Positions 933 through 51,994 of a stretch of 64,000 nt of DNA are shown piece after piece. A program made the position numbers and the translations under genes. This stretch comes from Chrysomallon squamiferum (taxonomy: Eukaryota > Animalia > Mollusca), in assembly GCA_012295275.1 (NCBI GenBank), contig CM022670.1:29450001-29514000 (forward strand). Direction: 5' to 3'. Under the pieces are notes generated by a model, which had not been told where the DNA came from, ran no database searches, and was given only the letters and a program-made list of their open reading frames with translations. The first letter of the stretch is position 1; each line of letters begins with the position of its first letter.

Positions 933-1339
933 TGATGATGATGATTATACAACAACAATAATAATGATGATGATGATAATGATGATAATAAAACAATAAC
1001 AACAACAATAATAATACTAATAAAATAATAATGTAAACAGAAATGTTTTCGGTAATTCATAGACGTCTGAGGACTGACAAGCAGAGAACAAACACAGATG
1101 CTTGATCCTTTCGTCACGTTGATTCGTTTGTATAAATTATAAATAAATAAATAAATAAATAAAAGCATCTTAGAAAAACTGTCGAGATGTCTTTTAAATT
1201 CTTCAGTCCGAAGTGATGTGCGTTAAAATATATATAATCTTCCTCTATTAATTTCGTCTAAATTCTCATTTTATTATCAAATTATTGCAGCAAACTAGAA
1301 AACGCTTCTGATACGCCGCCGCTAGTTGGTGCAACGAAC

Positions 1340-1925
1340 AATGTAACATCCAATGTATTTTGCCAAATTTCTTTTTTCTGGCCGTGGATCTTAAGAAAGT
1401 GAGTGCAAAGGACAGTGCTGAGAAGAAGAAGCAGATGATGTCCATTGAATTAAAGCTCGAATTCATAAAAAAATATGAACGAGGTGTGCATATAGCCGAC
1501 TTGGCTAGGCAGTATGAGCATATGTACCATACTGAAATTGAAGGAATCAGTAAAGGCTGTAACTCAAACCAAAGGCAAAAAATAATTTGTCTGATGTCCA
1601 AGATAAATACACTTTACAAAACCAATTTATTTCTTTACATTCTCTTTTATTTAGTTTTTTGCAATATTTGTCATTTATAAATACAGTTTTCTTATTTAAA
1701 AATACATTACCAAATAATAAAAAAAAATAATAATAATAAAAAAAAATAATAATAAAATAAAATAAAAAAAATAAAAAATAAAAATGGGGTGATTTTTGGG
1801 GGCTGGAACGGATTAATGGTATCTCAATTAATTTCAGTTGGGAAAATTAATTTGATATAAGAACAAACTGAGATACGAGCTCGGTCACGGAATGAATTAA
1901 ACTTGTAAGTCAAGGTACAACTGTA
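1340..1925 (+). mobile_element. Tigger/pogo-type DNA transposon remnant (internally deleted)
   Basis: ORF 1360-1680 contains KKVSAKDSAEKKKQMMSIELKLEFIKKYERGVHIADLARQYE, a CENP-B/Tigger N-terminal HTH-like sequence. It ends in a TIR-like CTTGTAAGTCAAGGTACAACTG followed by TA (1902-1925). The left boundary is approximate. Confidence 0.75.
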
Positions 1926-2036
1926 ACTTTATTTATTTATTTTTTTAATTATTTTTTAAATTTGGTTTACACATTTCATCTTAATTTTTTTTGATATAAT
2001 TTCAGGTGAATGCAAACTTTCTGAAAATTAACAGTG

Positions 2037-4776
2037 ATGATCAACATTCTGCTTGTGACAGGTAAACTGTTATTCATATGTATAGGTTATTCGAACTTAA
2101 TGTACGAACTGGACATAGCTTTTCAGTGTATATTGGTGTGAAGCAGTGTTTCACCACAATCCTAAGGATGTGGTATGTATTACACTTTCGACTGTACGTC
2201 GAAAGCATGGCATATTGAAAGTCGATAAATGATTTCCCCTTCCTAATGATTACCCTAAACATCTTTACATCCACAATATCATAACCGTCTGTAGAGAATA
2301 AATTGTGGTGTGTCAAATATTAATTGAATCATATAGATACACATACATACTTATTTATGTATGTATGCATATATGTAGGTATATGTATGTATGTATGTAT
2401 GTATGTATGAATGTACGTATATATCTACGTGTGTATGTGTGCATGTGTATGTGTTTGTGTCTGTATGTATATATACAGTATGTACGTCTGTAGTATGTAC
2501 GTCTGATTAAATTTTGCTCGTGGACAATATTCGTGAAAACACTAACATAGGACAACAGATCCAATCACAACATAAAAAACCGCATAAAATGCCGCCGAGG
2601 AGACTCATTCGCACGCCCTCAAGACAAACCTACATACATGCATACATTCCAACTATTCTATCCTAAATGTGAGATGCATCCGTATGAAAAGATTCCTTCT
2701 TTTATGGAATATATTAATTAATCATATTTAAACATTTCAGTCTTTGCGGCAGTCACAGTCGGTGTGGTACATGCTGGACGTATTGTAGATGCCAACAAAC
2801 TCTACAAGGCGGAAAGCCAAAATAAATGGCTAACCAAACGAACCCCGTCATTTCAAGGAATGCTTGGGCTTTCCAGTGACATTAAGTTAAAACCAGAGGA
2901 AGAGACTTTTCAGACTGTGCATGGTTCTGTTCAGCGCAAATTTAAAGAGGTATTTAAAGGGCTGGATGTACTCGGTGGGACTGTCGAGGCAGACGTTGAC
3001 GAAAATGGTGAGTACCAAGGAGGTTTAATCGGCGGTACGATTGTTCTGGATATCGCTAGTGATGTACCAAACATTTATTGCAAGTATTCAAGAACAAAGG
3101 CAATCGCGAGAGTACTCGAGGAAGAAGGCCTACAGCAGTCAGATATTATTAATGTCAAAGTAAAGCCACGTCAAATATTCACCGATGATAAGAACAAAGC
3201 ACATCTGGCCATTAAAGTGGAAATGCTAGCTGACACTGGGACTGAACTACGAAAACCTCATTATTACATAGATATGTGTACTGAGAAAATACTTAAACAT
3301 TTCAACAAAATAACGACTGTAACTAAATCGTTCACAGAATCAACACCGACAACATTTACTGGAGCAAACAAAGCTGAAATAAGTTCTACTGGATCAAGTT
3401 CAACTGAAACAGCTTCTACTGGTTCAAGTTTAATAGTTTCCAGTACAACTGTAGGCACTACGTCTGGCGATACCCAAACAACGGTACAGAATACCAATAT
3501 GGCAACACAGTTTCCTCTGACAACTGTCAAACCTGAAGAATGCAGTATTGGAGCCGGAGTTGGTGGTAATGCGAAAACTGGTAAATATAGTTATGGAATA
3601 CCACCACGATGCCTCACTCCTAAAGTAATGGGTACCAAATGCTTTATGGAGAATAAATATGTTGTTGTGTTTGATGCGAAGCAAACTAATAACACAGAAC
3701 GTATGAAAGTCATAGAATTCGAATGCTCAAAAGGATATAGTGATGCAATAAATGACGCTTACGGACCTGCTAATGATGCTTTCTTCCATGGCACAATCAC
3801 CCAGAGGATGCTGAATGAATGGTACCAACTGAATCCATTGTGGAAACCTTCATTAATTGTCCATTATGGTAGACATATAGAAGATGCCGTTTGGAATTTT
3901 CCTTCTGTTCTGCTTGGAGATGGGTATAGTGATCATTATCCTTTCGTCAATTTGGACACTATTGCACATGAAATAGGTCATGGGGTTACTGAAGTATATA
4001 GCGGTTTAGAATATTCCGAACAATCTGGAGGTATGGATGAAGCTTTCTCTGATATTATGGGAGAAACAGCTGAAAGTTTTTTGTTCAACTATCTGAATAA
4101 TTCTAAATCAGATAACGACTGGTTGAGTGGAATGCAGGATACAAAAGATAAGAATGTACCTTTACGATATTTCGATAAGCCATCGCGTGACGGTTCTTCC
4201 ATCGACAAAGCAAGCGAATACACGAAAAATCTTGATGTTCATCTTAGCTGTGGGGTTTATAACAGAGCCTTCTATCAAATCTCCAAGATTTACAAAGTTG
4301 CCATTAGATATGCGTTCGAGGCATTTCTGACTGCTAATCGAATATACTGGAAGACGAACTCCAACTTTGTTAATGGCGCCTGTGGGGTGATGAGAGCTGC
4401 TTACGGACTAGGTCTGGACGTAGACTCATTCAAGAAAGGTTTTGCTGCTGTAGAAATTGAAACTTGCATCATGAATGATTATTTGCAGATGTTGACACCT
4501 GATCAGCCACGTAAAAGCATCAAAGTATCCAGTATCAGGCAGCCTGTGTTTGGAATTAGTCTGAAGGCTAGTACTTCTTCAGTAACCGTAACCGCTAGCG
4601 ATAAGAAAATCAAACTGGCGATTTCTACTACTTGGTCCAGAGATTCTCCTGCAGCCACTGGTCAAGGTTCTGTAACATGGTCAACTGGTGGAAAAACGGG
4701 CACAATTTATGTCAGGCTGTTCACGGATGATGAGAAAGAGATAATTCTGTCGCAGCTGACGTTGTCTGTTCAGTAA
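2037..4776 (+). CDS. Secreted M4 (thermolysin/LasB/vibriolysin-like) zinc metalloprotease, copy 1; coding exons 2037-2061 and 2741-4776
   Basis: The GT-AG phase-1 intron 2062-2740 joins MINILLVT|VFAAVTVGVVHA (signal peptide). A propeptide and short S/T linker follow, then GGNAKTGKYSYG, HEIGH (HExxH), GGMDEAFSD (third Zn ligand), DVHLSCGVYNRAFY, ANRIYW...GACGV and a ~100-aa beta-rich C-terminal extension. AATAAA lies at ~4796. Confidence 0.93.
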
Positions 4777-4901
4777 AATACTAAAATTCGGATATAATAA
4801 AGACATGTCTCTCTATATATTCATACTTGTATTTTCATTTTAGATTATTAAACATTTTACAGCATATATTTACAGTGTAAATCTATGTTGACATCTACTT
4901 G

Positions 4902-4943
<42 letters not shown>

Positions 4944-5059
4944 TATTATTATTATTATTAGACGACATTTAATTGTGGTAAAGAATGTTTATAACGTGAA
5001 TCTTATTATATAATAAATATAAAACAGCCTTGAACGGCAGAAATAAAATATCTTCCGAT

Positions 5060-5410
5060 AATTATGAAATGTGCACAATGCCGCAGCTCGTGCTAAAACT
5101 TACTTTAAAACTCCTGAAAAATGATACAAAATATTTGATGAAAATGAACCTGTTACTACGGTTAATTAGAAACAAAATACGGACACGCAAGAAACAACAG
5201 TTATAGAATTGCAATGCTCAAAAGGATAGACGATTCCAATAAAGCGTACAGTCGTTCTAACGATCCTTTCTTCCAGATACTGTCAGCCAGAGGATGATTA
5301 ATAAATGTTAAAGAATGAATCCACTGAATAAAACTTCACTACTTATTCATTATGTTAGAATCTAGAAGAATGTCTTTTGGTCGTGTTCTTCTGTTATATG
5401 TGGAAATAGA
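5060..5410 (+). pseudogene. Decayed fragment of a third M4 protease copy
   Basis: Nucleotide similarity to the catalytic-domain code (GTTATAGAATTGCAATGCTCAAAAGGATA vs GTCATAGAATTCGAATGCTCAAAAGGATA; CCAGAGGATG; AATCCACTGAATAAAACTTCACT), with stops and indels. Confidence 0.8.
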
Positions 5411-6983
5411 ATTAGTATTATTAGTATTTATTTATTAAAGGAAATATGACTTAATTAATATAACTATCTATTTAACTCATTCCTCCCAAAATCAGTTTTG
5501 ATCGATGATTCAGTATTCACATTTGCTTACTTTGCAAGAGAGAGGGAGAGATTTATGAACAATTACTGAGACAAAAAGAATAGCAGATAAATAGAAGGAA
5601 ATAATTAGGCATTGACTTACCGTATGAAGCAAAATCTAGAACGTCTTCGAAATAGCAATACATGAAAAAAAAGAAACCATCCTTTTTTTCTCTGCAAAAA
5701 TGTTCTGTTTAAATAAACGCACTCAAAAATATATTTCATTTCGAAAAATTACAACGTTAATTGATCATATATATTGACCCCAAACTAAGGATTTTGTAAT
5801 TTATATCGTGCATACTGTTCTGTGAGGCAACCCTTTTATTACAAATTTATGGCGATAGTTAATGGCTACGTTTTCAATTTGATATGAATAGCTATTTAGT
5901 TATTAAGCGATGTAATGAAAAAGGTTACACTGAACATTAAAATTAATTTCCTGTATATCAGAGATAGTATCGCAAAATCAACACCAGTAAGTAAATTCAG
6001 TTATAAACAAAATTTACAATATGACTGAGAAGGAGCTGCACCACTGACAACGTCCGGACTCTGTCTGTGTAAAATCCTGTTAATAAAATACATATTGAAC
6101 GAAAACAGTATGACATAAACGTTATAGATAGTAATTCCCAGTAATTCCCTTTCTTTGCAACAGTTAATAAAAATGAACTCATCAATTTTTTTTTTATCAT
6201 AATTAATTTATGTATTATGTAGTTTTTAATAATTAATTAAACAACATGGCTGATATGTATCATTTCCTTTATTGAAATATATTGATATTTATCCATGCTC
6301 AAAAGATATATAAACAAATTTACTTTTCATTTACGAAACATCAGAATAGCATCATCATCATTGTCTTGGTAAGTAGACAATTTATTACTATACTTTTCTG
6401 TCGATGTCAGATTATAACTAAATTCAAATTAAAACTACAGAACATTTGTTTCATGCTTGTTATTTACATGGTTGATGTTAATGATTTGTGAATATGTTTT
6501 AAACGACAATTTTATTATGAATACTGATAGTAATGGTTCCAATTAAAAATAAAAATAAAAAATATATATAAAGAGAAAACTAATAATAGTTTTTCTGGTC
6601 AAGTAATATATATCTAAGCATTAATTTTTATAAATATTTATAATCTATAAGCACAGAAATTATCTCGTTCATTCGAACCCTTTTCTCGTTTGCTTTAACC
6701 TGACAATCCGGGTAAACTACTTTGTACCCGTTTAACAAAGGTACGCAATTTATGTTTCTTTTATTCAGTTGTTGAAGACATTTGTAGAAACCTAACTATA
6801 ATGTATGTTAATCAAAGATAGTATACATACCTTCTATATTTGGAATTATATAAATATTTGTAATTGGGATTTATTTATTTTAAAACCCAGTCTAAACATT
6901 AAATGTAATTCTAAATTATATCGTCCTTTTATGAACATTTTGTGCAGATTTTCAGGTGCATGAAAGCTTTCTGATAATTAAAA

Positions 6984-9900
6984 ATGGCGATCAATGCTTT
7001 GCTGTTAACAGGTAAAATTATTAGTTTTATATATATAGGCTATTCGAATTAAATGTGTCAAGGAGACAAAGCTATGCAGGATATAATGTTGCTGTTCAGT
7101 GTACTAATAAGGTTTACTTCCATCTGAACCTCAAACTCTTTGGTGTATGTTATTCTAAAAACACAATACATGAAAGGATTTCGTTAAAATTCACATGTAC
7201 TAATCTGTACCTAAAAAACATTTTCATGTGTCGTCAAGCATTAATCCATTTAGATTTACGTATGTACACAGTAGATATACACACACACATTCCACATTCA
7301 CATGTACTTACATTCGTACGATTGTGTCCTAAATGTGAGATGCAACTGTTTGAAAAGATTCCTTTTTTAATGGATATTACTACTTCGTTAATATATTTAA
7401 ACATTTCAGTTTTTGCGGCAGTCACAGTCGGTGTGGTACATGCTGGACGTATTGTAGATGCCAACAAACTCTACAAGGCTGAAAGCCAAAATAGATGGCT
7501 GACCAAACGAACCCCGTCATTTCAAGAAATGCTAGGGCTTTCCAGTGACATTAAATTAAAACCAGAGGAAGAGACTTTTCAGACTGTGCATGGTTCTGTT
7601 CAGCGCAAATTTAAAGAGGTATTTAAAGGGCTGGATGTACTCGGTGGGACTGTCGAGGCAGACGTTGACGAAAATGGTGAGTACCAAGGAGGTTTGATAG
7701 GCGGTACGATTGTTCTGGATATCGCCCGTGATGTACCAAACATTTATTGCAAGTATTCAAGAACAAAGGCAATCGCGAGAGTACTCGAGGAAGAAGGCCT
7801 ACAGCAGTCAGATATTATTAATGTCAAAGTAAAGCCACGTCAAATATTCACCGATGATAAGAACAAAGCACATCTGGTCATTAAAGTGGAAATGCTAGCT
7901 GACACTGGAACTGAACTACGAGAACCTCATTACTACATAGACATGTGTACTGAGGAAATACTGAAGCATTTCAACACAATCACAGGATCAGCTTCGACTG
8001 CATTTACCATAGTAGGCGATACTGAACCAAGTTCGACAGGATCAAATTCAACTGAAGTAAGTTCAGTTGAGAAACGTTCCTCTGGATCAAGTTCATATCG
8101 CTCAAGTTCATCTGGATCAAGTTCAAATGAAGCAAGTGTATCTGGCTCAATTTCCACTAAAGCAAGTTCAAATGAAACAAATTCATCTGGATCAAGTTCA
8201 TCTGGATCAAGTTCAAATGAAGCAGGTTCATCTAGCTCAAGTTCAACTAAAGCAAGTTCAAGTGAAACAAGTTCATCTGGATCAAGTTCAACTAAAGCAA
8301 GTTCAACTGAAACAGGTTCGTCTGGATCAAGTTCATCTGGATCAAGTTCAACTAAAGCAAGTTCATCTGGATCAAGTTCATCTGAATTAAGTTCATCTGG
8401 CTCAAGTTCAGCTGAAACAAGTACTTCTGGTTCAAGTTCAGCTGAAACAAGTACTTCTGGTTCAAGTTCAGTTCAAACAAGTTCATCTGAATCAAGTTCA
8501 ACAGGTTCAAGATCAGCTGAAACATGTTCAACTGATGCAAGTTCATCTGGATCAGGTTCGACTGAAGCAAATTCAATTGAAAAAAGTTCCTCTGTATCAA
8601 GTTCAGCTGAAGCTATTTCAACCGAAACAGGTTCATCTGGATCAAGTTCAACTGAAGCAAATTCAATTGAATCAAGTTTATCTGGATCAAGTTCATCTGG
8701 ATCAAGTTCAAATGAAGCAGGTTCATCTAGCTCAAGTTCAACTAAAGCAAGTTCAACTGAAACAGGTTCGTCTGGATCAAGTTCATCTGGATCAAGTTCA
8801 ATTGAAGCAAGTTCATTTGGATCAGGTTCGACTGAAGCAAGTTCACCTGATACAAGTTCATCTGGCTCAAGATCAACTGAAGCAATTTCAGTTGATACAA
8901 GTTCACCTGGATCAACTTCGACTGAAGCAAATTCAATTGAAACAGGCTCATCTGGATCAAGTTCCACTGAAGCGAATTCAATTGAAACAAGTTCCTCTGC
9001 ATTACGTTCATCTACATTAAGTTCTTCCGGATCCACTCTAACTGAAACAAGTTCATCTGGATCAAGTTCAACTAAAGCAAGTTCAACTGAAACAGGTTCG
9101 TCTGGATCAAGTTCAACTAAAGCAAGTTCATCTGGATCAAGTTCATCTGAATTAAGTTCATCTGGCTCAAGTTCAGCTGAAACAAGTACTTCTGGTTCAA
9201 GTTCAGCTGAAACAAGTACTTCTGGTTCAAGTTCAGTTCAAACAAGTTCATCTGAATCAAGTTCAACAGGTTCAAGATCAGCTGAAACATGTTCAACTGA
9301 TGCAAGTTCATCTGGATCAGGTTCGACTGAAGCAAATTCAATTGAAAAAAGTTCCTCAGTATCAAGTTCAGCTGAAGCAATTTCAACCGAAACAGGTTCA
9401 TCTGGATCAAGTTCAACTGAAGCAAATTCAATTGAATCAAGTTCATCTGGATCAAGTTCAACTGAAGCAAGTTCATCTGGATCAAATTCGATTGAAGCAA
9501 ATTCAACTGAAACAAGTTCATCTCGATCAAGTTCGACTGAAGCAAATTCAATTGAAAAAAGTTCCTCTGTATCAAGTTCAGCTGAAGCGATTTCAACCGA
9601 AACAGGTTCATCTGGATCAAGTTCAACTGAAGCAAATTCAATTGAATCAAGTTTATCTGGATCAAGTTCAAATGAAGCAGGTTCATCTAGCTCAAGTTCA
9701 ACTAAAGCAAGTTCAACTGAAACAGGTTCGTCTGGATCAAGTTCATCTGGATCAAGTTCAACTAAAGCAAGTTCATCTGGATCAAGTTCATCTGAATTAA
9801 GTTCATCTGGCTCAAGTTCAGCTGAAACAAGTACTTCTGGTTCAAGTTCAGCTGAAACAAGTACTTCTGGTTCAAGTTCAGTTCAAACAAGTTCATCTGA

Positions 9901-12900
9901 ATCAAGTTCAACAGGTTCAAGATCAGCTGAAACATGTTCAACTGATGCAAGTTCATCTGGATCAGGTTCGACTGAAGCAAATTCAATTGAAAAAAGTTCC
10001 TCTGTATCAAGTTCAGCTGAAGCAATTTCAACCGAAACAGGTTCATCTGGATCAAGTTCAACTGAAGCAAATTCAATTGAATCAAGTTCATCTGGATCAA
10101 GTTCAACTGAAGTAAGTTCAACTGGATCAAATTCGATTGAAGCAAATTCAACTGAAACAAGTTCATCTCGATCAAGTTCGACTGAAGCAAATTCAATTGA
10201 AAAAAGTTCCTCTGTATCAAGTTCAGCTGAAGCGATTTCAACCGAAACAGGTTCATCTGGATCAAGTTCAACTGAAGCAAATTCAATTGAATCAAGTTTA
10301 TCTGGATCAAGTTCAAATGAAGCAGGTTCATCTAGCTCAAGTTCAACTAAAGCAAGTTCAACTGAAACAGGTTCGTCTGGATCAAGTTCATCTGGATCAA
10401 GTTCAATTGAAGCAAGTTCATTTGGATCAAGTTCGACTGAAGCAAGTTCACCTGATACAAGTTCATCTGGCTCAAGATCAACTGAAGCAATTTCAATTGA
10501 TACAAGTTCAGCTGGATCAACTTCGACTGAAGCAAATTCAATTGAAACAGGCTCATCTGGATCAAGTTCCACTGAAGCGAATTCAATTGAAACAAGTTCC
10601 TCTGCATTACGTTCATCTACATTAAGTTCTTCCGGATTCTGAAACAAGTTCATCCAAGTTCAACTAAAGCAAGTTCAACTGAAACAGGTTCGTCTGGATC
10701 AAGTTCATCTGGATCAAGTTCAACTAAAGCAAGTTCATCTGGATCAAGTTCATCTGAATTAAGTTCATCTGGCTCAAGTTCAGCTGAAACAAGTACTTCT
10801 GGTTCAAGTTCAGCTGAAACAAGTACTTCTGGTTCAAGTTCAGTTACAACAAGTTCATCTGACTCAAGTTCAACTGGTTCAAGATCAGCTGAAACATTTT
10901 CAACTCCATCCAGTTCAACTGAAGCAAATTCAGTTGAATCAAGTTCATCTGGATCAAGTTCAACTGAAGTAAGTTCATCTGGATCAAATTCGATTGAAGC
11001 AAATTCAACTGAAACAAGTTCATCTCGATCAAGTTCGACTGAAGCAAATTCAATTGAAAAAAGTTCCTCTGGATTACGTTCATCTGCATTAAGTTCTTCC
11101 GGATCCAATCCAACTGAAACAAGTTCATCTGGATCAAGTTCAACTAAAGCAAGTTCAACTGAAACAGGTTCGTCAGGATCAAGTTCAACTGAAGCAAGTT
11201 CATCTGGATCAAGTTCGACTGAAACAAATTCAATTGAAACAAGATCATCTGGATCAAGTTCAACTGAAGCAAGTTCACTTGATACAAGTTCATCTGGCTC
11301 AAGTTCAACTGAAACAAGTATTTCTGGTTCAAGTTCAGTTCAAACAAGTTCAACTGGCTCAAGATCAGCTGAAACATGTTCAACTGATGCAAGTTCATCT
11401 GGATCAGGTTCGACTGAAGCAAATTCAATTGAAACAAGTTCCTCTGTATCAAGTTCAGCAGAAGCAAGTTCAACTGAAACAGGTTCATCTGAATCAAGTT
11501 CGATTGAAGCAAATTCAACTGAAACAAGTTCATCTCGATCAAGTTCAACTGAAGCAAATTCAATTGAAACAAGTTCATCAAGATCACGTTCAACTGAAAC
11601 AACTTCACCAGGATCGCATTCAACTGAAGTAAGTTCACCTGATATAAGCTCATCTGGATCAAGTTCATCTGAATTAAGTTCATCTGGCTCAAGTTCAACT
11701 GAAACAAGTACTTCTGGTTCAAGTTCAGTTCAAACAAGTTCCTCAGTATCAAGTTCAGCTGAAGCAATTTCAACCGAAACAGGTTCATCTGGATCAAGTT
11801 CAACTGAAGCAAATTCAATTGAATCAAGTTCATCTGGATCAAGTTCAACTGAAGTAAGTTCAACTGGATCAAGTTCGACTGAAGCAAATTCAATTGAAAA
11901 AAGTTCCTCTGTATCAAGTTCAGCTGAAGCGATTTCAACCGAAACAGGTTCATCTGGATCAAGTTCAACTGAAGCAAATTCAATTGAATCAAGTTTATCT
12001 GGATCAAGTTCAAATGAAGCAGGTTCATCTAGCTCAAGTTCAACTAAAGCAAGTTCAACTGAAACAGGTTCGTCTGGATCAAGTTCATCTGGATCAAGTT
12101 CAATTGAAGCAAGTTCATTTGGATCAAGTTCGACTGAAGCAAGTTCACCTGATACAAGTTCATCTGGCTCAAGATCAACTGAAGCAATTTCAATTGATAC
12201 AAGTTCAGCTGGATCAACTTCGACTGAAGCAAATTCAATTGAAACAGGCTCATCTGGATCAAGTTCCACTGAAGCGAATTCAATTGAAACAAGTTCCTCT
12301 GCATTACGTTCATCTACATTAAGTTCTTCCGGATCCACTCTAACTGAAACAAGTTCATCTGGATCAAGTTCAACTAAAGCAAGTTCAACTGAAACAGGTT
12401 CGTCTGGATCAAGTTCATCTGGATCAAGTTCAAATAAAGCAAGTTCATCTGGATCAAGTTCATCTGAATTAAGTTCATCTGGCTCAAGTTCAGCTGAAAC
12501 AAGTACTTCTGGTTCAAGTTCAGCTGAAACAAGTACTTCTGGTTCAAGTTCAGTTACAACAAGTTCATCTGACTCAAGTTCAACTGGTTCAAGATCAGCT
12601 GAAACATTTTCAACTCCATCCAGTTCAACTGAAGCAAATTCAGTTGAATCAAGTTCATCTGGATCAAGTTCAACTGAAGTAAGTTCATCTGGATCAAATT
12701 CGATTGAAGCAAATTCAACTGAAACAAGTTCATCTCGATCAAGTTCGACTGAAGCAAATTCAATTGAAAAAAGTTCCTCTGGATTACGTTCATCTGCATT
12801 AAGTTCTTCCGGATCCAATCCAACTGAAACAAGTTCATCTGGATCAAGTTCAACTAAAGCAAGTTCAAGTGAAACAGGTTCGTCAGGATCAAGTTCAACT

Positions 12901-15367
12901 GAAGCAAGTTCATCTGGATCAAGTTCGACTGAAGCAAATTCAATTGAAACAAGATCATCTGGATCAAGTTCAACTGAAGCAAGTTCACTTGATACAAGTT
13001 CATCTGGCTCAAGTTCAACTGAAACAAGTACTTCTGGTTCAAGTTCAGTTCAAACAAGTTCAACTGGCTCAAGATCAGCTGAAACATGTTCAACTGATGC
13101 AAGTTCATCTGGATCAGGTTCGACTGAAGCAAATTCAATTGAAACAAGTTCCTCTGTATCAAGTTCAGCAGAAGCAAAGTTCAACTGAGACAGGTTCATC
13201 TGAATCAAGTTCGATTGAAGCAAATTCAACTGAAACAAGTTCATCTCGATCAAGTTCAATTGAAGCAAATTCAATTGAAACAAGTTCATCAAGATCACGT
13301 TCAACTGAAACAACTTCACCAGGATCGCATTCAACTGAAGTAAGTTCACCTGATACAAGCTCATCTGGATCAAGTTCATCTGAATTAAGTTCATCTGGCT
13401 CAAGTTTATCTGAATTAAGTTCATCTGGCTCAAGTTCAACTGAAACAAGTACTTCTGGTTCAAGTTCAGTTCAAACAAGTTCATCTGAATCAAGTTCAAC
13501 TGGCTCAAGATCAGCTGAAACATGTTCAACTGATGCAAGTTCATCTGGATCAGGTTCGACTGAAGCAAATTCACTTGAAACAAGTTCCTCTGGATCAAGT
13601 TCAGTTGAAACAGGTTCATATGGATCAAGTTCAACTCAAGCAAAATCAGTTGAAACAGGTTCATCTGGATCGAGTTCAACTGAAGCAAGTTCAACTGATA
13701 CAAGTCCCTCTGGATCAAGTTCAACTGAAACAAATTCAATTGAAACAAGCTGCTCTGCATCAGGTTCAACTGAAGCAGCTTTATCTGGATCAAGTTCGAC
13801 TGAAGCAAATTCAGTTGAAACAACTTCATTTGGATCAAGTTCAACTGAAACAAGTTCCTCTGTATCAAGTTCAACTGAGGCAAATTCAATTGAAACAAGT
13901 TCCTTTGATTCAAGTTCAACCGAAACAAATTCCTGTGGTTCAAGTTCAACTGAAGCCATTTCAACTGGATCAAGTTCAAGTGAAGGAGGTTCAACTGAAA
14001 CAACTTCTACTGCTTCAAGTTTAATAGTTTCCAGTACAACTGTAGGCACTACGTCTAGCGATACCCCCAAAACGGTACAGAATACCAATATGGCAACACA
14101 GTTTCCTCTGACAATTGTCAAACACGAAGAATGCAGTTTTGCAGCTGGAGTTGGTGGTAATGCGAAAACTGGTAAATATAGTTATGGAATACCACCACGA
14201 TGCCTCACTCCTAAAGTAATGGGCACCAAATGTTTTATGGAAAATGAGCATATAACTACTATTGATTTGAAACATACTAAAAAATACCGTAAAAGGAAAG
14301 TCATAGAATTCGAATGCTCAAAAGGATATAGTGATGCAATAAATGACGCTTACGGACCTGCTAATGATGCTTTCTTCCATGGCACAATCACCCAGAGGAT
14401 GCTGAATGAATGGTACGGAGTCAATCCACTGAAGAAACCTTCACTGCTTGTTCATTACGGTAGAAGCTTGGACAATGCCTATTGGCTGGATTCATCTGTA
14501 ATACTTGGAGACGGGAATACTATGTGTTATCCTTTAGTCAATTTGGACACTATTGCACATGAAATAGGTCATGGGGTTACTAAAGTATATAGTGGTTTAG
14601 AACACTGCGAACAATCTGGAGGTATGGATGAAGCTTTCTCTGATATTATGGGAGAAACAGCTGAAAGTTTTTTGTTCAACTATCTGAATAATTCTAAAGC
14701 AGACAACGACTGGTTGAGGGGAATGGAGGATACAAAAGATAAGAATGTACCTTTACGATATTTCGATAAGCCATCGCGTGACGGTTCTTCCATCGACAAA
14801 GCAAGCGAATACACGAAAAATCTTGATGTTCATCTTAGCTGTGGGGTTTATAACAGAGCCTTCTATCAAATCTCCAAGATTTACAAAGTTGCCATTAGAT
14901 ATGCGTTCGAGGCATTTCTGACTGCTAATCGAATATACTGGAAGACGAACTCCAACTTTGTTAATGGCGCCTGTGGGGTGATGAGAGCTGCTTACGGACT
15001 AGGTCTGGACGTAGACTCATTCAAGAAAGGTTTTGCTGCTGTAGAAATTGAAACTTGCGACATGAATGATTATTTGCAGATGTTGACGGCTGATCAGCCA
15101 CGTAAAAGCATCAAAGTATCCAGTATCAGGCAGCCTGTGTTTGGAATTAGTCTGAAGGCTAGTACTTCTTCAGTAACCGTAACCGCTAGCGATAAGAAAA
15201 TCAAACTGGCGATTTCTACTACTTGGTCCAGAGATTCTCCTGCAGCCACTGGTCAAGGTTCTGTAACATGGTCAACTGGTGGAAAAACGGGCACAATTTA
15301 TGTCAGGCTGTTCACGGATGATGAAAAAGAGATAATTCTGTCGCAGCTGACGTTGTCTGTTCAGTAA
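6984..15367 (+). CDS. Secreted M4 metalloprotease, copy 2, with a giant Ser-rich repeat linker; exons 6984-7011 and 7410-15367, with frameshifts at ~10636-10656 and ~13177 as assembled
   Basis: Spliced signal peptide MAINALLLT|VFAAVTVGVVHA; propeptide nearly identical to copy 1; intact HEIGH, DEAFSD and DVHLSCGVYNRAFY in ORF 12869-15367. The N- and C-terminal ORFs are in the same frame and the middle of the array reads in a shifted frame. Confidence 0.85.
8020..14010 (+). repeat. Coding tandem array of 15-bp units (e.g. TCAAGTTCAACTGAA, TCAAGTTCATCTGGA) with higher-order duplications
   Basis: Pentapeptide periodicity (SSTEA/SSSGS). Near-identical blocks recur at 645-bp and 1710-bp offsets, seen from repeated shadow ORFs (9117/9762; 10844/12554). 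Confidence 0.95.
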
Positions 15368-15738: not shown

Positions 15739-16893
15739 TACTCTCCCAAAAAAGAAAGGCAAAAGTAGATTTTATTGACATTGGGAATATCTATCTAATG
15801 GATCAACAGAAAGCAGCAGAATGTTCACATTTTACACACACTTTCGCTGTTCATTAATATTGGTGGTATTACATTGAAAAGGTTGAAGTTCAAGGTTATA
15901 ACAATATAATATCAATACCTTGTGTGCCCACTATGGGAGTCCAGAACTGCCTGACATCTCCTTCTCATGGCAGTAATGACATTACGAATTACACTTTGTG
16001 GAATGGTGGCCCACTCTATCTGTAGTAATAATGCCAACTGAGCACGATTCTGTGGCTGTGGTTGATGCGGCCTCAGTCGTCTATACAACTCTATAGGATT
16101 CAAATCCGGAGATTTACAGGACCTGAATGTTATTGTTGTGTAGGTACGCTGTTGTGAGTCTGGCTGTATATGGTCTCGCATTGTCGTGTTGGAATACAGT
16201 ATTACCATTATTCATAATTGGAACGACATGTGGCTGCAAAATTTCATCTCGGTATCTCTGTGCCATTACGTTGCCTTGAATGTGAACCAGGTTGGTCCTG
16301 CCAGTGTATGAGGTTGCTGCCCACACCATCACACTACCACCACCAAATCTGACCGCTTCCTGTATGCAGTTTGCAGCAAAACGTTCGCCGCGATGTCTGT
16401 AAACTCGACATCTTTCATCAGCTCGACGAAGCAGAAATCGAGCCTCGTCACTAACCCATACAGTTCTCCATCATAACTGAGGCCAGACTCTGTGCAGCTG
16501 ACACCATTGACGTCGTAGTCGACGATGTTGTTGAGTCAAAACCACTCTTCTTACAGGCCATCTGGATCGAATACCTGCCTCGCGTAAACGATTGCGCACT
16601 GTCTGAGCCGATATTCTACGCAGACCTGGTATTGTGGAAGCAGTAGAGGTAGCCGTGGTGGTTCTTTCCCGTAGATGAAGTACCCGTATGTAGCGGTCCT
16701 GGGCCCTGGCGGCTACAAGTGGTCTAACTGATCTGGGACGGTCACCTGTTGTTTGGTGTTGCTGGAACTGATACCACAATCTCAAGATGGTGCTTGGGGA
16801 TACATGGAACAGTCGGGCTATGGCCGAGAAGGATTCGCCAGCTTGTAAACGGCCGATGGCGTTGTTTCGTTGCGGTTCACACAGTCGTGACAT
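15739..16893 (-). mobile_element. Tc1/mariner-superfamily DNA transposon with a disrupted DDE transposase (15912-16893)
   Basis: HTH N-terminus (AIARLFHVSPSTILRLW, SAQTVRNRLRE), stop at 16471, then WRTVWVSDEARF, MVWAA, VFQHDNARPY and SPDLNPIE across frameshifts. A putative TA+CTCTCCCAAAAAAGAAA end lies at ~15739; the other TIR was not found. Confidence 0.88.
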
Positions 16894-17558
16894 TTGTTTG
16901 ACGTTGGGTCAGAACAAAAATAACGAACAGAAGTTTTAGAAAACCTTGCATTTTTATAACCCTCGTATTCAAGTTTCATGTACGCACGTGCTCATGCACT
17001 GGTAAAGTGGTTTGCATGCGGGGACGTTTTGGCTAATAAACACACAAAAACAAAATGTCTAAACCTATCTATATCAGTCCTGTAGTTAACATAAAGAGTG
17101 AAAAATGTATAATATAACAAAAGTACTTGTAAAACACTGCAGTTAAGCTACATCATTAACAATTCCGGCTGTCTGCAAAGAAGTAGCAACAGTTACGTTG
17201 AAAACCGATGAAAATATTATATTATAATTAATACTGTACGTGTGAAAAATCTTGATCATAATTAATATAAGTAGTGTACATCCAAGAACTTCTAATATAC
17301 AACATTCTTTTAAATTATATTTATTGAAATAATTAATACGTATCGACGTATATAAATAATTTCCTTCACCTTCAGAACCATCATAAAAGAAGCTTCATTA
17401 CTAGCACATAATTTTACTCGTTTTATAATATTCTAGCTGTTAACCTCAAAAGTCTCATTTGTATTTTGTTGTTGTTGTTGTTGTTGTAAAAATGTTGTAC
17501 TTTCTCAAAATAATAATCGTATATTTTGCTGAACAAAACTGTAACAACAACAACAACA

Positions 17559-18603: not shown

Positions 18604-30372
<11,769 letters not shown>

Positions 30373-36868: not shown

Positions 36869-37164
36869 ATGCACAGCGCACCTCGCACTGTGCTTGAGTT
36901 GCTGGTGCTGGCGTTGTTGCAGTTGAAACACTGTCACGCTTACAGCACTGGAGCACCGGACACTGCCTGCAACACCATGTCACCTCACCACGGCTTTACT
37001 AAATCATCCACTGCGATATCTCCATTTGTAGTGCTTGTTGCCAAAAATTCATACGAACCAAATGAAAACATTAAAGGTAAGAATAAAATACACACACACC
37101 CACACACACACACACACACACATACACAAAACAATTAATAGAAAAATGCTTTACTGCATGTTTA

Positions 37165-37200
<36 letters not shown>

Positions 37201-40200
37201 CTGTTTATAGGTTTCATCCTCCGGACAGAGAAGAAAAAAAAAGAAAGAATGAAAGAAAAAAAGATAAATTAAAAAAATCTATTTTTATTTATGTAAATAT
37301 AATGCAAATAAAAAGTTAATTTTAGTCAAGTGTGTAATTTATAACAAAGTATTTTTTATTTGTTACAGTAATGTTACGGGGACTCTGCAGTAACAAGTTT
37401 AAAGGTTTTCTCGTGGAAGCTAAGCCCGCCGATCCACTGCAAAATACAAATGACAGAATTGGAACGTTCAATGAAATTCCAGAGACTAGATATGCGTGTG
37501 GTCACGTGCGTATTTTCCTTTTTTTTAACGTATATATTTATTTATTTTATTAATGTTATTTATATCATACTAAATTTTATAAACTCGGCACTAGAGCCAT
37601 GGTCTGAATTATCATACGTTGATCTTCTGTGGCATCATCTTTGGTCTACTTTCCAATACAAGCCAGTTAATCTAATTTAGGCAGTGTTACAGTTAATTAT
37701 GTTTCTACGACTGTGCAAAGGAAGATAACAGAAGGAGCCATTGCTACTGGTTGAAACAATTGGATTCAATTCTGATGGCAGTCGGTTTCAATCCTGAAGG
37801 CAGAAAAATGGTTATATGAAATTATTACGGATGCTTCAAAACCGATAATATTAATCCACAGTAAATAATATTAATATATTTGAAATGGTTGTTAATAATC
37901 ATTTCATTACAATAATCATCGAGTGATTAATATGCTTCCAGGAAACAGGACTGACACATCTGAAGAACCACTCGAAGACGTCCATTCTGCTGACCTGGAC
38001 AGCCCCAGCTAAACCTTCTGGTCACGTTGTTATAGTGTAATTTTATTTTCATTACAGAAATATGTTCATTTATATAAATGATGTATGAGCATCAGCTCAT
38101 GTAAACAGTAACCCATCTTTTTGTTATATAATAGATATGCATAGATTCCTTATATTAAAGATATATTTATAATCATAAGACGGTTATCATTTTATTAAAT
38201 GTTCAAAATAATCTAAGAACAACGAAGCACTGTCGCCACAGCTGTGAAGAAAATGCTAAAATTAACTGCTGATTTAATATTTAAATAATATTAATATATG
38301 CTAAGAGCCCTAATTATTTTAAAATAACAACATCATTGTCATACATGAAATAATTACAAAAAAAAAATGAAGAAGGAAACAATTTTAAAATGTTATTTAT
38401 CATTTACATATTTCATAGCAGGAGCTTTTTTCAAATAAAATGACAAGATGATAAATTATTGATTGATATTTTGCTTTTAAGTACAGCTGTTACAGGAATG
38501 TTAAAATATTCTTTTACATTTTCTTATTTTATTTGTCAGAGCTACTTTCGTGAAAGGTTTCAGCACATTCTGGACAGCGGTCAGTTCTATTGCCATCACT
38601 GACCCGCAAGCCCCACCTTTGCGAATAAAAACATCGCTAATGACACCGTACATTAAACCATGCGCCGAAGATTTACCTCAGACTACAACATCACCTCCGC
38701 CAGCAAGATCCACACAGTTCAAAACAACGTTAAAGTCTGCACCAACATCAACCTCAACGACTACTTTATGGACAACTTCCAAATGGAAGCTGACGACAAC
38801 AACGAAACGTCCAATGAGACATTCCGAGAACTTGACAGTATCAGCTGTATCAACAACAACCACACCCCCATCTCACCCACCTTTTACTGTGATACACGTA
38901 ACAACGCCAAAACCTGTAAGCAGCTAAACAATATCTGTTGTCATTTATTTATTTATTTACATGACATAAATTAGCCAAATTATATTTTTGTGCTGGGGTG
39001 TTAAATAAAGAAAATTATTTATTTACTTAATATTACTGACGTACTAGTAGTAGCAGTAGTAGTTGAATCGATTCTTTTTATAAAGAAAAAAAAACTTCAC
39101 TGATTTGCTCGTATTTGTTCTTTTTGTTTATTTCTGTTCTCTTTTCCTTTTTTCTTTCTTCTCTTCATTTTATTTTTATATTTTTTTAAATTATGACTCA
39201 CGACTGGAATATATGTGTCGTTTATTTCTACATATAATTCGACCATTTTCGTTCTTATTATTCTTGGTTTCGTAGATTGCTACATTCAGTCCTGAACCTA
39301 ACTGTGGTCTTACCCACGGATGCTTCGTGGACTGTCAGAAAGAAAACTGTAAATTCGAGATTGCGTGGAAGGACGTGGGAGACAGGGTGTGGTTCCGTGT
39401 CAGAGCAGTCGCCATTTCTGACGTCCCCCATCAGTGGATCGCTGTAGGGTTTTCCACCGACACTAAAATGGTGAATGTCCTGATTATTCTGCACTAAGTG
39501 TTTTTTCATTTGTAAATAAATAAAGAAACACATAAAGAAACACACAAACATACGAATACATACACAAACAAACAAGAAAGAATTATGAATTTTATTAGTC
39601 AGAAATCATTACTGAGAATAAAGTTGGATACGTTATTTTAAACGTTTTTCTGTTTCTAATGTGCGAAGTAATTTGTATTAACTCAGTGAATGACCAAACG
39701 TGTGATCACCTTGTACACCTCTCTACATGAATCATTTTTAATTATGAAAGGCATTTATGATTTCAGATTAAATTATTTTTATATCTTGTTCAGGTCCCAA
39801 TACAGCTGGTTTTGTTACTTATTTACAAACTAATGTGGAATTATTTTGCTATTTGTGCAGGGTGACGACAGCGTTGTGGAATGTGTACATACAGACAACC
39901 GAATGATGACAATCAACGTTTCCTACAACAATCACAGGAAGAATACTAGATTTCAAACGGTTTTCAGATTACAGTATATATATTTAACACATGAAACACA
40001 AAAACATAAAAATTAAATACAGTTTATTCAATATGATTACTGGGTTTTTGCCCGTTTCTTTCAGAATATTGGTTACGTTTATTGCTATTGTTGCTTTCTG
40101 GTATTGTATAATATATATTAAAAGATAAATAGTTCGTTCTTAAAAATCTATTAATTTTAATTTTTCTTAACCATAATTTTTGTTTTACCTGGCTTGTTTG

Positions 40201-43200
40201 ACAATGTTTTTGGACACATGTTGGATATAATAGAATGTCTTTAATGTAATTAAAATAAGTTTAACAAAGCTAATCGTTTTTAATTTTTACAGAACATTCC
40301 TGTTGTCGACTTAATATCTGGATCTGTGACAAATGGTTTCATTCAGTGCGAGTTTACACGTCTGAAGAAACTGGAAAGTGAAAACAGAGTGTTTAATTTA
40401 AACAGTGACTTTTACTTGCTGATTGCACAAGGTGTGTCCGATGACCAAGGTTTGTAGTCTTTTCCTTTCAAAATCCCTTCATTCATTCATTTATTCTTTC
40501 GTTCGTTCGTTCATTCATTCAATCCTTTCATTCTTTCTTATTTATATAATTTATCTTTTTTTGTATTTTTTGTTTGTTTGTTAATTCATTATTTTTCTTG
40601 TTTCTGATGCTGTTGTTGCTGTTGTTAATCCTCTTGATGTCTTCTTATTATTGGTATTATTGCTGTACATACTAATATTATTTCAATATTTTAATATGTA
40701 AATATATATTTCAGATTTCTCGTATAACAAAGAAACAATATTATCATGTTCTTAAATTCCTTTCTTAAGAATTTTGTTCTTTGACACTCAGGTTTATTAA
40801 GGCAACACACTGGTGTACCGACAATCTCTGGAACGAAAGCAAACTTAAAAGCTTCAGTAATTCTGAAACCAAATAACTTGGGAAAATTATTCATAAAAAT
40901 ACACGGTATGTTAAAATTAACTGGAAAATTTCCCACTAGATATATTAAACAATATTAAAAAGAACAAACATCAGCCATTACTAGATGAATGGCGGCTGAC
41001 ATATATGATAAAGTTTAATATCCTAGATCCACTGACCTTTGGTTATTCACAAACACAAAGAAAATATTTTTAAAATAATACTTACCAATCAGTCAGAAAT
41101 TCATATATTTTGTTTTTCAAATTTCTGAAATGTACAGAATATATGTGATCAATAAAATTAATTAAATACAAAATCATAATTATATATATCGTGAAAGAAA
41201 CACACAAAATTTTCTCTATGGCATATTACATATTGACTTTCTAACAAATAATGATTATTCAAACTTCTTTGTTACTGTACTATATCAGGGTTTTTTAACG
41301 TAAACTGAAAAAAGACATGCTGCTTAATGAATTGATCACACACAAAAACACACGCACACACAGACAAACACACATATTTATGAAGATGGATGTATGAAAG
41401 AAGTTTGTTTTGTTTCAGCTGCCGCGATGACCTTTGCCTGGATGTTCTGTGCTAGTATTGGTATTGTTGTATCAAGATTTTATAAACCACTTTGGCCACA
41501 GAAGAAAGTTTGTGGTAGAAAAGTCTGGTTCACGGTAAGGCAAGACGAATGATTTATTTAGTACATAATTAAAATAAATAACACCAGCACCACCAACAAC
41601 AAAATCTTTAAAAATAAGTCGACGAAGCAGATACAAATAAAATAATCTAACCTTTAATGGTACATTTTTGTTTTCATAGCATCAATATTGTTTTGTTCTT
41701 CTTGTTCTTGTTCTTGTTCGTCTTCTTGTTCTTCTTGTTTTTGTTCTTTTTCTTCTTTTTCTCACTATTATTAGTATTAGTAGTTGTAGTAATAGTAACG
41801 GTAGTAGTAGTAGTAGTAGTAGTAGAGTAGTAGTAGTATTACTTATTGTAATTTTTATAGTGATTTATTTTATAGATTCATCGTTCACTGATGTTGTTTC
41901 TCGGTGTAATTGTGTCCGCTGCTTTCGTTATTATATTTTTGGAAGTTCAGGGACTAAGTGATGTAAGTTTACACAGATACAAATTTTATATATCTTTAAA
42001 CATTAGTAAATTCAAAATGGTTAATTGCTATTATTATACTCGAGTGATCTAACTGTAGAACAGATAAACAAAACTGAAATGATATTCGACTGATTGCAGG
42101 GACAAATTTTCCCAAAACGTGCGCTCAGCTCTTTAACTTAGAAAAATATAAAATTTGTATGTATTTGTGAGTACGGGCGTGCGTGCGTGTGTGTTATATG
42201 ATTAAGTTTATAAAATATAATGTCTTAATGATCTTAATAAGTAGGTCAGATATTTACTCAAATGTTATTTGTTTTCAGATAAATTTTGTAAAATTCCAAA
42301 ACATGCATCCCGTTCTCGGCATGATCGTAATGGGACTGACTGTTGTTCAGGTAAATATGTTTGAAACATTTCCACGTAAAAGATCAAATCAGTGAGCACA
42401 AGTTTTTAAAAAAGACTGCTATTTAATCTTTAATAACAAAGGACATTTTACTCCAATCTAACAAGAAAATAAATGTTGATCTCTGCTTTTCTTAATCCAT
42501 TAATAAATGTTCACAATGAAACCGGTTATTACCAGTGGTTCTTGGTAAAAATGTATATTCAGTAATTAGCAACACAATACTAATTCATCTACACATTTTA
42601 GGTGTTTGTTTTTATGTATGAAATAACAAAGTTATGCCTATATATCAGTCATTAAGATAGAACAAAAAGATATATTTATTGATTTTAATATGCTACCCAT
42701 CTCATTAATTTGAATAAATATTCTGTAATCCCATTAAAAATGTTTATGAAGCACATGTATAAAATATACTGATTTGTTATTTTTAGATACTTCTTGGTAT
42801 GTGTCGGCCGAATTCGACTTCAAATAAACGACCTGTATTTAACTGGGCTCACTGGGGTATTGGAATTATTCTGCACCTGGTATCAGGTAGGTGATACTGA
42901 AATTGTTTAATGTTTATACAAATTAAGTTTTGCTTAATCGTTGGTCCCAAACAATTCGTTGTATTAGCAATATTTTTAAATCTTGTTTATCCTTAACCGT
43001 ATCAGGTAACTGAGACTTCATTTTATAAAATAAAATAAAAGATGATTATGTAGAGAATATTCTGTATTAGTTGTCTCTAAAACTGTTATATACTTTGAAA
43101 GTTTCTCACATTACTTCTATAACATAAGAAGGAAAGATGATTTTAAACGTTTCATTACACTGGCACGGAGAAATTATCATAGTAGCTGCGGTGAAATAGA

Positions 43201-51500: not shown

Positions 51501-51942
51501 TTTCTCCATGAAACCTAAATAAAAATGATTATATCAGTTTTCAGTCATACTGGTTATACAGAAAGAAATTTGTTTCATTTTTTAACCTTATAAAAATAAA
51601 ATAAAGAAAATAAAAAATCATTTGCAATGTCTGTATTTATTTTATTCTCATAAACTACTTTTAAAGTCTAGTGCATGTGTGTGTTTACGTTTATATGTAT
51701 GTGTTTTTATCTAACATGTACTTTATGTTCATACTAACATGACAGATTTAGCAAAGTATGATTTACCTCTATTATTAGACAGTCCTTGTGCTAGCAAAAT
51801 ATAATAATTGTTGTTTAAGTCAAACACTTTGCTTTCACCATCCAGCTTTTTCAAACGAGTAAATTCACATTGAATGAAACCATTATTCAGTGAATCATAG
51901 GCCAAATTAGCAACAGGAATAGTCTGAAATTATATTTACAGA

Positions 51943-51994
<52 letters not shown>

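What the first reader, a model, noticed from the sequence alone, without database searches (positions are those of the whole stretch)
2037..15367. Domesticated bacterial-type (LasB/vibriolysin-like) M4 proteases in an animal genome
Seen: the motifs GGNAKTGKYSYG, FEC...AINDAYGPANDAFFHG, DVHLSCGVYNRAFY and ANRIYW...GACGVMRAA track the gammaproteobacterial elastase subgroup. The protease body is a single intronless exon, while a GT-AG intron splits the signal peptide at the same position in both copies, and the flanks carry animal transposons and intron-rich genes. Established: M4 is mainly a bacterial family. Inference: horizontal transfer from bacteria, then signal-exon acquisition and tandem expansion, rather than contamination. 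Similar genes may already be annotated in some invertebrates.
Basis: partly seen in the sequence, partly recalled or inferred. Interest (0 to 1): 0.78.

Follow-up and report, generated by a model that had tools for sequence, protein, structure and literature searches.

The report
Bacteria-derived snail proteases, giant serine spacer
This snail genome carries two intron-split genes for a zinc protease of the bacterial elastase type; they belong to a family found in snails, clams, octopuses and chitons that likely came from one very old gene transfer from bacteria, and one copy likely encodes a 2,000-residue serine-rich spacer in front of the enzyme.

Summary
Two tandem M4 protease genes (2037-4776, 6984-15367) have a GT-AG intron at the same place in the signal peptide and keep the full vibriolysin layout: signal, propeptide, catalytic domain, PPC domain. 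They are host DNA: short-read depth equals that of AT-rich flanks, or multiples of it.

The transfer is not recent. Named relatives occur in 13 species of four mollusc classes and form one clade (100/96) inside the proteobacterial pseudolysin/vibriolysin group. The donor is unresolved (AU p 0.05-0.12). Databases already label these proteins 'elastase-like', and one snail genome supplement lists a peptidase M4 expansion. Ten paper searches found no description as a transfer. 'Signal-exon acquisition' is unnecessary: the bacterial relatives already have signal peptides.

- Copy 2 carries a 6-kb 15-bp repeat, about 2,000 residues and 48% Ser, between propeptide and enzyme; its two frame breaks are likely assembly errors.
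- The copies differ mainly around the substrate-binding subdomain (35 of 43 changes).
- A decayed fragment lies between them, and depth suggests a third copy.

No transcript was seen.

The parts
2037..2061 (+). Copy 1, first coding exon (first 8 residues of the predicted signal peptide)
   Evidence: ATG at 2037, donor GT at 2062; frame fits exon 2
2062..2740 (+). Copy 1, phase-1 GT-AG intron inside the signal peptide
   Evidence: GC 0.34, microsatellite-rich; a short-read contig covers 2479-2772 across the acceptor at single-copy depth
2741..3312 (+). Copy 1, rest of signal peptide plus FTP/PepSY-type propeptide
   Evidence: model matches the MCP-02 propeptide 3nqz_A (E 4.5e-11, TM 0.75 by target); sequence hit to 3nqy_A E 3.2e-7; no Pfam FTP/PepSY hit in this protein
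3313..3540 (+). Copy 1, Ser/Thr-rich spacer of about 75 residues, absent from bacterial relatives
   Evidence: pLDDT under 50 for model residues 187-247; junction 96 residues against 21-23 in 20 of 22 bacterial proteins
3553..4467 (+). Copy 1, M4 catalytic domain (HEIGH, DEAFSD, LRY, DVH; the four Cys of elastase are kept)
4471..4776 (+). Copy 1, diverged PPC (pre-peptidase C-terminal) domain and stop
   Evidence: profile-profile match to bacterial PPC 96.4%, E 1.1e-9; fold matches collagenase PPC domains Z 11.3 and 10.0 and the vEP C-terminal domain Z 8.7
5126..5416 (+). Decayed M4 fragment with stops and frameshifts, covering only the N-terminal part of the catalytic domain
   Evidence: 72-73% nucleotide identity to both copies; tblastn E 6e-11
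6984..7011 (+). Copy 2, first coding exon (9 residues of the predicted signal peptide)
   Evidence: one short-read contig spans 6582-7441, i.e. upstream DNA, exon, whole intron and start of exon 2, at depth 52
7012..7409 (+). Copy 2, phase-1 GT-AG intron at the same position
7410..8020 (+). Copy 2, rest of signal peptide and propeptide, nearly identical to copy 1
8021..14012 (+). Copy 2, 15-bp tandem repeat (399 units) read as about 2,000 residues: 48% Ser, 13% Thr, 9% Glu, 8% Gly; frame breaks near 10637-10655 and 13176
   Evidence: no stop in the Ser-rich frame of the three segments; 228 of 231 core spacings are multiples of 15; breaks not supported by short-read contigs
14144..15058 (+). 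Copy 2, M4 catalytic domain; His at the position of elastase Tyr155
15062..15367 (+). Copy 2, PPC domain and stop, almost identical to copy 1
16114..16908 (-). Tc1/mariner transposase remnant in the flank
   Evidence: Pfam HTH_Tnp_Tc3_2 E 3.7e-10; summed depth about 10,000 in the DNA run

Best explanation
These are two tandem snail genes for a likely secreted zinc protease of the pseudolysin/vibriolysin type, belonging to a mollusc-wide family that likely descends from one ancient transfer from a proteobacterium, and copy 2 likely encodes a 2,000-residue serine-rich spacer. Shown: the domain layout (signal, propeptide, spacer, M4 catalytic domain, PPC domain), intact zinc ligands, host location and molluscan clade. 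Inferred mechanism: the spliced precursor enters the secretory pathway; the propeptide guides folding and blocks the active site; it is cut off at the end of the propeptide, probably by the enzyme itself because these copies lack the furin-type site seen in some relatives; the mature enzyme then keeps the Ser/Thr-rich spacer as a glycosylated or phosphorylated N-terminal tail and uses the PPC domain to hold protein substrates. The likeliest job is extracellular protein digestion in gut, mucus or matrix. The two copies are likely kept alike by gene conversion or recent duplication, while the substrate-binding subdomain has diverged, giving two specificities.
For: Host location: short-read contig depth is 48-62 on six single-copy stretches, 117 on shared propeptide DNA and 158 on the shared C-terminal half; GC3 is 0.35 and the flanks are 26-30% GC. 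Family: Pfam M4 and M4_C above cut-off; model pLDDT 89, pTM 0.89; Foldseek TM 0.92-0.96 by target to pseudolysin and vibriolysin against about 0.80 to thermolysin; PPC domain. Distribution: named relatives in Gigantopelta (63% over the catalytic part), Haliotis, Lottia, Nucella, Aplysia, Physella, Lymnaea, three Octopus species, Liolophura, Ruditapes and Mizuhopecten. Tree: 17 of 17 molluscan-clade rows form one clade (100/96) inside a 74-row pseudolysin/vibriolysin group (100/100). Spacer: homologous to the short spacer of copy 1; a relative, P0003, has an independent Thr-rich expansion (410-residue junction) at the same site. Divergence: 35 of 43 residue differences lie in residues 312-432, and the last 212 codons differ at only 4 codons.
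Against: No transcript: three RNA contig sets showed no meaningful cover of either gene, so splicing and expression are unshown. Trees that place the animal proteins outside all pseudolysin-type bacteria are not rejected (AU p 0.053 and 0.12), so the donor group and the number of transfers are open. Twelve unnamed animal-like proteins outside the molluscan clade could not be assigned to phyla. Copy 2 is out of frame as assembled. Absence of stops in the repeat is significant over all 391 units (5.9 expected, 0 seen) but not over the 106 distinct units (2.4 expected, P 0.09). The cleavage site, modification of the spacer and physiological role rest on inference.
Confidence: 0.7

Rival explanations
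1. Copy 2 is a pseudogene: the repeat expanded, real frameshifts truncated the protein before the catalytic domain, and only copy 1 (plus a possible third copy elsewhere) is functional.
For: As assembled, the frame stops at 10642. Copy 2 has His in place of the Tyr155-equivalent residue. A decayed fragment nearby shows that copies do die here.
Against: Short-read contigs give no cover at 10480-10669 or 13235-13320 and little at 13140-13234, while the intact sister unit is present at depth 178, about 3.3 times single copy, matching three window copies. A contig at depth 156 carries the base typical of the second broken unit but not its extra letter. The catalytic half has no stops. The run may be another individual and contigs in repeats are incomplete, so this is indirect.
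Confidence: 0.2
2. The family is older than molluscs: one transfer into an early animal (or several separate transfers), inherited vertically with many losses, so the snail genes are ordinary members of an under-described animal protease family.
For: Twelve unnamed animal-like proteins lie next to or near the molluscan clade, and holding all of them together with molluscs is not rejected (p 0.33; with the M4-ShK protein p 0.14).
Against: Every named animal hit was a mollusc (10 of 30 clusters looked up carried names). The best tree splits the unnamed proteins into two groups. This rival shifts the date, not the bacterial type of the gene.
Confidence: 0.35
3. Recent transfer from a symbiont or gut bacterium into this snail lineage, followed by recruitment of a new signal exon.
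For: The body exon has no introns, and identity to proteobacterial enzymes is 40-47%.
Against: Molluscan relatives are closer than any bacterium and form one clade across four classes. Bacterial relatives already have signal peptides. Base composition is host-like.
Confidence: 0.03
4. Bacterial contamination or a chimeric assembly.
For: No whole genome or RNA holder was available for a cross-check; the DNA run may be the source of the assembly.
Against: Depth is one, two or three times that of the AT-rich flanks; one contig spans exon, intron and exon; the same genes are annotated in 13 mollusc species, several on chromosome-scale contigs.
Confidence: 0.02

Closest known systems
Vibriolysin MCP-02 (Pseudoalteromonas; PDB 3nqx, 3nqy, 3nqz) and E495 (PMC3327674)
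   Same: Signal, propeptide, M4 catalytic domain and PPC domain in the same order; catalytic fold TM 0.94-0.96 by target, propeptide TM 0.75.
   Different: One diverged PPC domain (E495 has two); a Ser/Thr-rich spacer of about 75 to 2,000 residues at the propeptide junction; a spliceosomal intron; an extra Cys pair around the start of the catalytic domain shared by many molluscan members.
Pseudolysin (Pseudomonas aeruginosa elastase LasB; PDB 1ezm, 8cr3)
   Same: Best sequence match among solved structures (E 1e-71); zinc ligands, His223- and Arg198-equivalent residues and four Cys align.
   Different: LasB has no PPC domain or spacer. Copy 1 has Asp for Asn112 and His/Phe/Thr at 129/132/137; copy 2 has His for Tyr155 and Cys/Leu/Thr at 129/132/137 (numbering read from the alignment; the roles of these residues are recalled).
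Molluscan proteins annotated 'elastase-like', 'neutral protease-like' or 'virulence metalloprotease-like' (e.g. Gigantopelta XP_041359647.1 and XP_041357676.1, Haliotis XP_067678047.1, Octopus XP_014782361.1, Aplysia XP_012939109.1); orthogroup 'peptidase M4' in Supplementary Data 1 of PMC7142155
   Same: Same clade and layout; 52-63% identity to the Gigantopelta proteins. The supplement lists 3 copies in the scaly-foot snail, 4 in abalone and 1 in Radix as an expanded family.
   Different: These are automatic labels with no account of origin or function. No examined relative has a spacer near 2,000 residues (longest junction 410), but searches for much longer proteins were not run.
Thermolysin (Bacillus) and protealysin-type M4 proteases
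   Same: Same family and fold.
   Different: Much more distant (E 4e-13; TM about 0.80); outside the group that holds the snail proteins.

Membership tests
Peptidase family M4 | Peptidase_M4 and Peptidase_M4_C domains above curated cut-offs | tested here: met
   61.6/94.7 bits (copy 1) and 81.1/88.9 bits (copy 2) against cut-offs 22.4/24.4
Peptidase family M4 | HEXXH plus a third zinc ligand Glu about 20 residues downstream, and the catalytic His | tested here: met
   HEIGH, DEAFSD and DVH in both copies; invariant in the 80-row alignment for H, E, H, E
Peptidase family M4 | Transition-state Tyr (elastase Tyr155) | tested here: inconclusive
   Tyr in copy 1, His in copy 2; the effect on activity is unknown
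Peptidase family M4 | Zinc-dependent endopeptidase activity | not testable with these tools
   needs an assay
Pseudolysin/vibriolysin subgroup | Catalytic domain closer to pseudolysin and vibriolysin than to thermolysin | tested here: met
   inside the 74-row group with support 100/100
Pseudolysin/vibriolysin subgroup | Long FTP plus PepSY propeptide | tested here: met
   fold match to the MCP-02 propeptide E 4.5e-11; Pfam FTP is not hit in this protein but is hit in 50 of 80 aligned relatives, molluscs among them
Pseudolysin/vibriolysin subgroup | C-terminal PPC domain | tested here: met
   hhalign 96.4%; Z 11.3, rmsd 2.3 over 93 residues to a collagenase PPC domain; below Pfam detection; pairwise BLAST alone showed nothing
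Pseudolysin/vibriolysin subgroup | Propeptide joined directly to the catalytic domain and removed by self-cleavage | tested here: inconclusive
   direct junction not kept (96 residues against 21-23); self-cleavage could not be tested
Horizontally acquired gene (bacteria to animal) | Integrated in the host genome | tested here: met
   depth equal to host flanks, contig across an intron, relatives in 13 mollusc species
Horizontally acquired gene (bacteria to animal) | Nested within a bacterial donor clade with the alternative rejected | tested here: inconclusive
   nested in the best tree; AU p 0.053 and 0.12 for the non-nested alternatives
Horizontally acquired gene (bacteria to animal) | Absent from most other eukaryotes | tested here: inconclusive
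   only molluscs among named animal hits, but only the best 150 of 6,323 representatives were listed and 20 of 30 clusters looked up had no name
Horizontally acquired gene (bacteria to animal) | Transcribed and spliced in the host | tested here: inconclusive
   no RNA holder listed; three RNA contig sets without meaningful cover

The most novel reading that the evidence does not exclude
Copy 2 makes a 2,660-residue 'protease on a stalk'. After the bacterial-type propeptide is removed, the enzyme keeps a 2,000-residue tail in which 180 of 185 Glu have a Ser two places before them (S-x-E, the recalled consensus of the secretory kinase Fam20C). The heavily phosphorylated or glycosylated tail anchors the protease in mucus or a mineralising matrix. 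This snail lineage would have turned the cleavage junction of a bacterial virulence-type protease into a repeatedly expanding spacer, and diversified the substrate pocket between paralogues.
Probability: 0.25. Interest if true: 0.72.

Novelty: new variant of a known kind. Interest (0 to 1): 0.5.

Why it matters
M4 proteases are described as known almost exclusively from bacteria (PMC7851659, abstract) and several are virulence factors. A clade present in four mollusc classes would be an old bacteria-to-animal transfer that genome papers have passed over; the Gigantopelta preprint reports a lack of transfer although that species has two named members. It also warns that 'vibriolysin-like' hits in shellfish data need not be bacterial. 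The spacer and the diverged substrate subdomain give concrete, testable ways in which an animal changed such an enzyme.

Tried and rejected
No whole genome is held for the window, so copy number and linkage could not be read directly. No RNA holder was listed, and three RNA contig sets covered mainly the transposons; this says nothing for or against expression. A scan of metagenome contigs with copy 1 found no relative among 36 candidates. A second scan with P0121 returned 80 loci at 41-54% identity that did not include its own contig and were not used. Attempts to name non-mollusc carriers failed: 0 of 10 clusters had names, the profile search returned only unnamed animal-like rows and named bacteria, and two Atlas look-ups returned bacterial clusters only. 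Pairwise BLAST of the C-terminal domain against a bacterial PPC protein gave nothing; profile and fold comparison did. The stop-avoidance test is weak once identical units are merged. Ten paper searches listed no paper whose title or abstract start describes molluscan or animal M4 proteases as a transfer; I saw listings only, and subscription journals are not covered. Passages of four genome papers had no mention of thermolysin or elastase. The paper on MCP-02 maturation was not held, so the self-cleavage mechanism is recalled. The joints 2066-2863 and 10897-12893 in the DNA run were read as paralogue or repeat effects, not splicing. No complex prediction was run.
Full report
Observation. Two genes lie head to tail on the plus strand. 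Copy 1 has a 25-base coding exon (2037-2061), a phase-1 GT-AG intron and a body exon ending at 4776, 686 residues in all. Copy 2 has a 28-base exon (6984-7011), an intron at the same position and a body exon from 7410 to 15367. Both catalytic domains pass the Pfam M4 and M4_C cut-offs and match Pseudomonas elastase and vibriolysin MCP-02 far better than thermolysin.

Host DNA. In the one DNA run that holds the stretch, contigs on six single-copy stretches have depth 48-62. The propeptide DNA shared by both copies has 117 and the shared C-terminal half 158, while the flanking transposon has about 10,000. One contig spans upstream DNA, the first exon, the whole intron and the start of the body exon of copy 2. 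This fits host genes in about three copies, two of them in the window. The run may be the source of the assembly, so it is not fully independent. The flanks are 26-30% GC and hold a Tc1/mariner remnant and an inverted pair of Reeler-DOMON (FRRS1-like) genes. Three RNA contig sets did not meaningfully cover the genes; expression is unshown.

Architecture. An AlphaFold model of the copy 1 precursor without its signal (666 residues, 80 sequences) has pLDDT 89 and pTM 0.89, with one disordered stretch at the spacer. It matches vibriolysin and pseudolysin catalytic domains at TM 0.92-0.96 by target and the MCP-02 propeptide at E 4.5e-11. The last 100 residues are a diverged PPC domain by profile (96.4%) and by fold (Z 11.3 to a collagenase PPC domain). 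In the bacterial enzyme E495, PPC domains bind protein substrates (PMC3327674, abstract and introduction read). The whole bacterial precursor layout is therefore kept. Bacterial relatives begin with their own signal peptides, and the intron falls after residue 8 or 9 of a 20-21 residue signal, so a recruited signal exon is possible but not required.

Family and origin. The closest named proteins are from the vent snail Gigantopelta aegis (52% overall, 63% over the catalytic part). Named relatives occur in seven gastropods, three octopuses, a chiton and two bivalves. I built a maximum-likelihood tree from 80 of 407 available catalytic domains, picked by hand after removing near-copies. All 17 molluscan-clade rows form one clade (100/96) inside a pseudolysin/vibriolysin group (100/100) made mostly of proteobacteria. 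Deeper branches are weak. Trees with the animal-like proteins outside all these bacteria are not rejected (p 0.053; p 0.12), nor is a single origin of all animal-like rows (p 0.33 and 0.14). Twelve unnamed animal-like proteins outside the molluscan clade could not be placed in phyla. The safe reading is an old acquisition, at or before the mollusc ancestor, from a bacterium with a vibriolysin-type gene; the donor is open.

The spacer. In 20 of 22 bacterial proteins the junction between propeptide and enzyme is 21-23 residues; in the measurable bivalve, limpet and octopus proteins it is 23-40. It is 96 in copy 1 and 119, 126 and 410 in the three closest full-length relatives, all rich in Ser and Thr. 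In copy 2 it has grown into a 15-bp repeat of 399 units (8021-14012) that is homologous to the short spacer of copy 1. Read in its Ser-rich frame it gives about 2,010 residues with no stop in any of three segments, 48% Ser, and 180 of 185 Glu preceded two places earlier by Ser. Of 231 spacings between core motifs, 228 are multiples of 15; the three others mark two frame breaks. Short-read contigs do not cover those junctions but do hold the intact sister units at about three times single-copy depth, which points to assembly error. Depth on six of eight repeat contigs is at or above the number of window copies, so the repeat is probably not inflated. Several relatives have an R-x-x-R site in the junction, absent from the 22 bacteria and from copy 1, which hints that some lineages switched to activation by host convertases.

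Divergence of the copies. Over the 415 codons of catalytic and PPC domains the copies differ at 43 residues; 35 of these fall in residues 312-432, and the last 212 codons differ at 4 codons. The variable part includes the strand and pocket positions that align with elastase Asn112, Phe129 and Leu132, and Tyr155, which is His in copy 2 (alignment; roles recalled). A decayed fragment at 5126-5416 covers this same part. Gene conversion or recent duplication with divergence at the substrate site is the likely cause; I did not run a selection test.

What is known. These proteins carry automatic database names, and Supplementary Data 1 of the scaly-foot snail genome paper lists a 'peptidase M4' family as expanded, with 3 copies (PMC7142155; passages of the main text, term searches of its supplements and part 1 of file 8 seen). 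I did not test which species the window comes from. The Gigantopelta preprint states a lack of transfer from prokaryotes (passage; its supplements are closed and may bear on this). Ten searches found no paper on the family's origin. An unreviewed note of this scan reached the same view for an abalone gene; it is not independent support.

Verdict. A real, host-encoded, bacterial-type protease pair. It is an old mollusc-wide family rather than a peculiarity of this genome, apparently undescribed as a transfer, with a lineage-specific giant serine spacer as the most unusual feature.

Noticed in passing
P0113, P0322, P0323 (unnamed records): M4 proteases with ShK domains in place of the PPC domain; P0113 groups with Vibrionaceae enzymes (99/98), apart from the molluscan clade. 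Possibly a second, separate transfer into a eukaryote; host unnamed.
   Followed up: partly
window 1975-2005 and 6925-6955: Both copies have a pyrimidine tract and CAG about 30 bases before the ATG, where their similarity begins; likely the acceptor of a further intron in the 5' untranslated region.
   Followed up: no
window 36900-42900 (+) and 50008-54598 (-): Two FRRS1-like (Reeler, DOMON, membrane-helix) genes in inverted orientation, exons 72-80% alike; each has a Thr/Pro-rich exon (38505-38927, 53029-53415).
   Followed up: partly
P0002, P0003, P0042, P0066, P0073, P0081, P0100, P0127: Many unnamed relatives begin just inside or after the signal peptide, as expected if the start sits on a separate small exon there too; a hint that the signal-peptide intron is old. 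Their DNA could not be read.
   Followed up: no
P0042, P0043, P0047, P0049, P0051, P0073, P0105: R-x-x-R (furin-type) sites at the propeptide junction in several animal members, none in 22 bacterial proteins.
   Followed up: partly
P0174 (Aplysia): Long-branch member with intact HEXXH but without the DVH motif; may be inactive or altered.
   Followed up: no
window 1312-1900: High-copy repeat (summed depth about 58,000 in the 1500-2033 bin) whose frame resembles a pogo/Tigger-type DNA-binding head (resemblance recalled; no Pfam hit).
   Followed up: no
window 28302-29192 (-): 296-codon frame rich in Pro, Gln and Asn with no Pfam hit; probably an exon of an unrelated gene.
   Followed up: no
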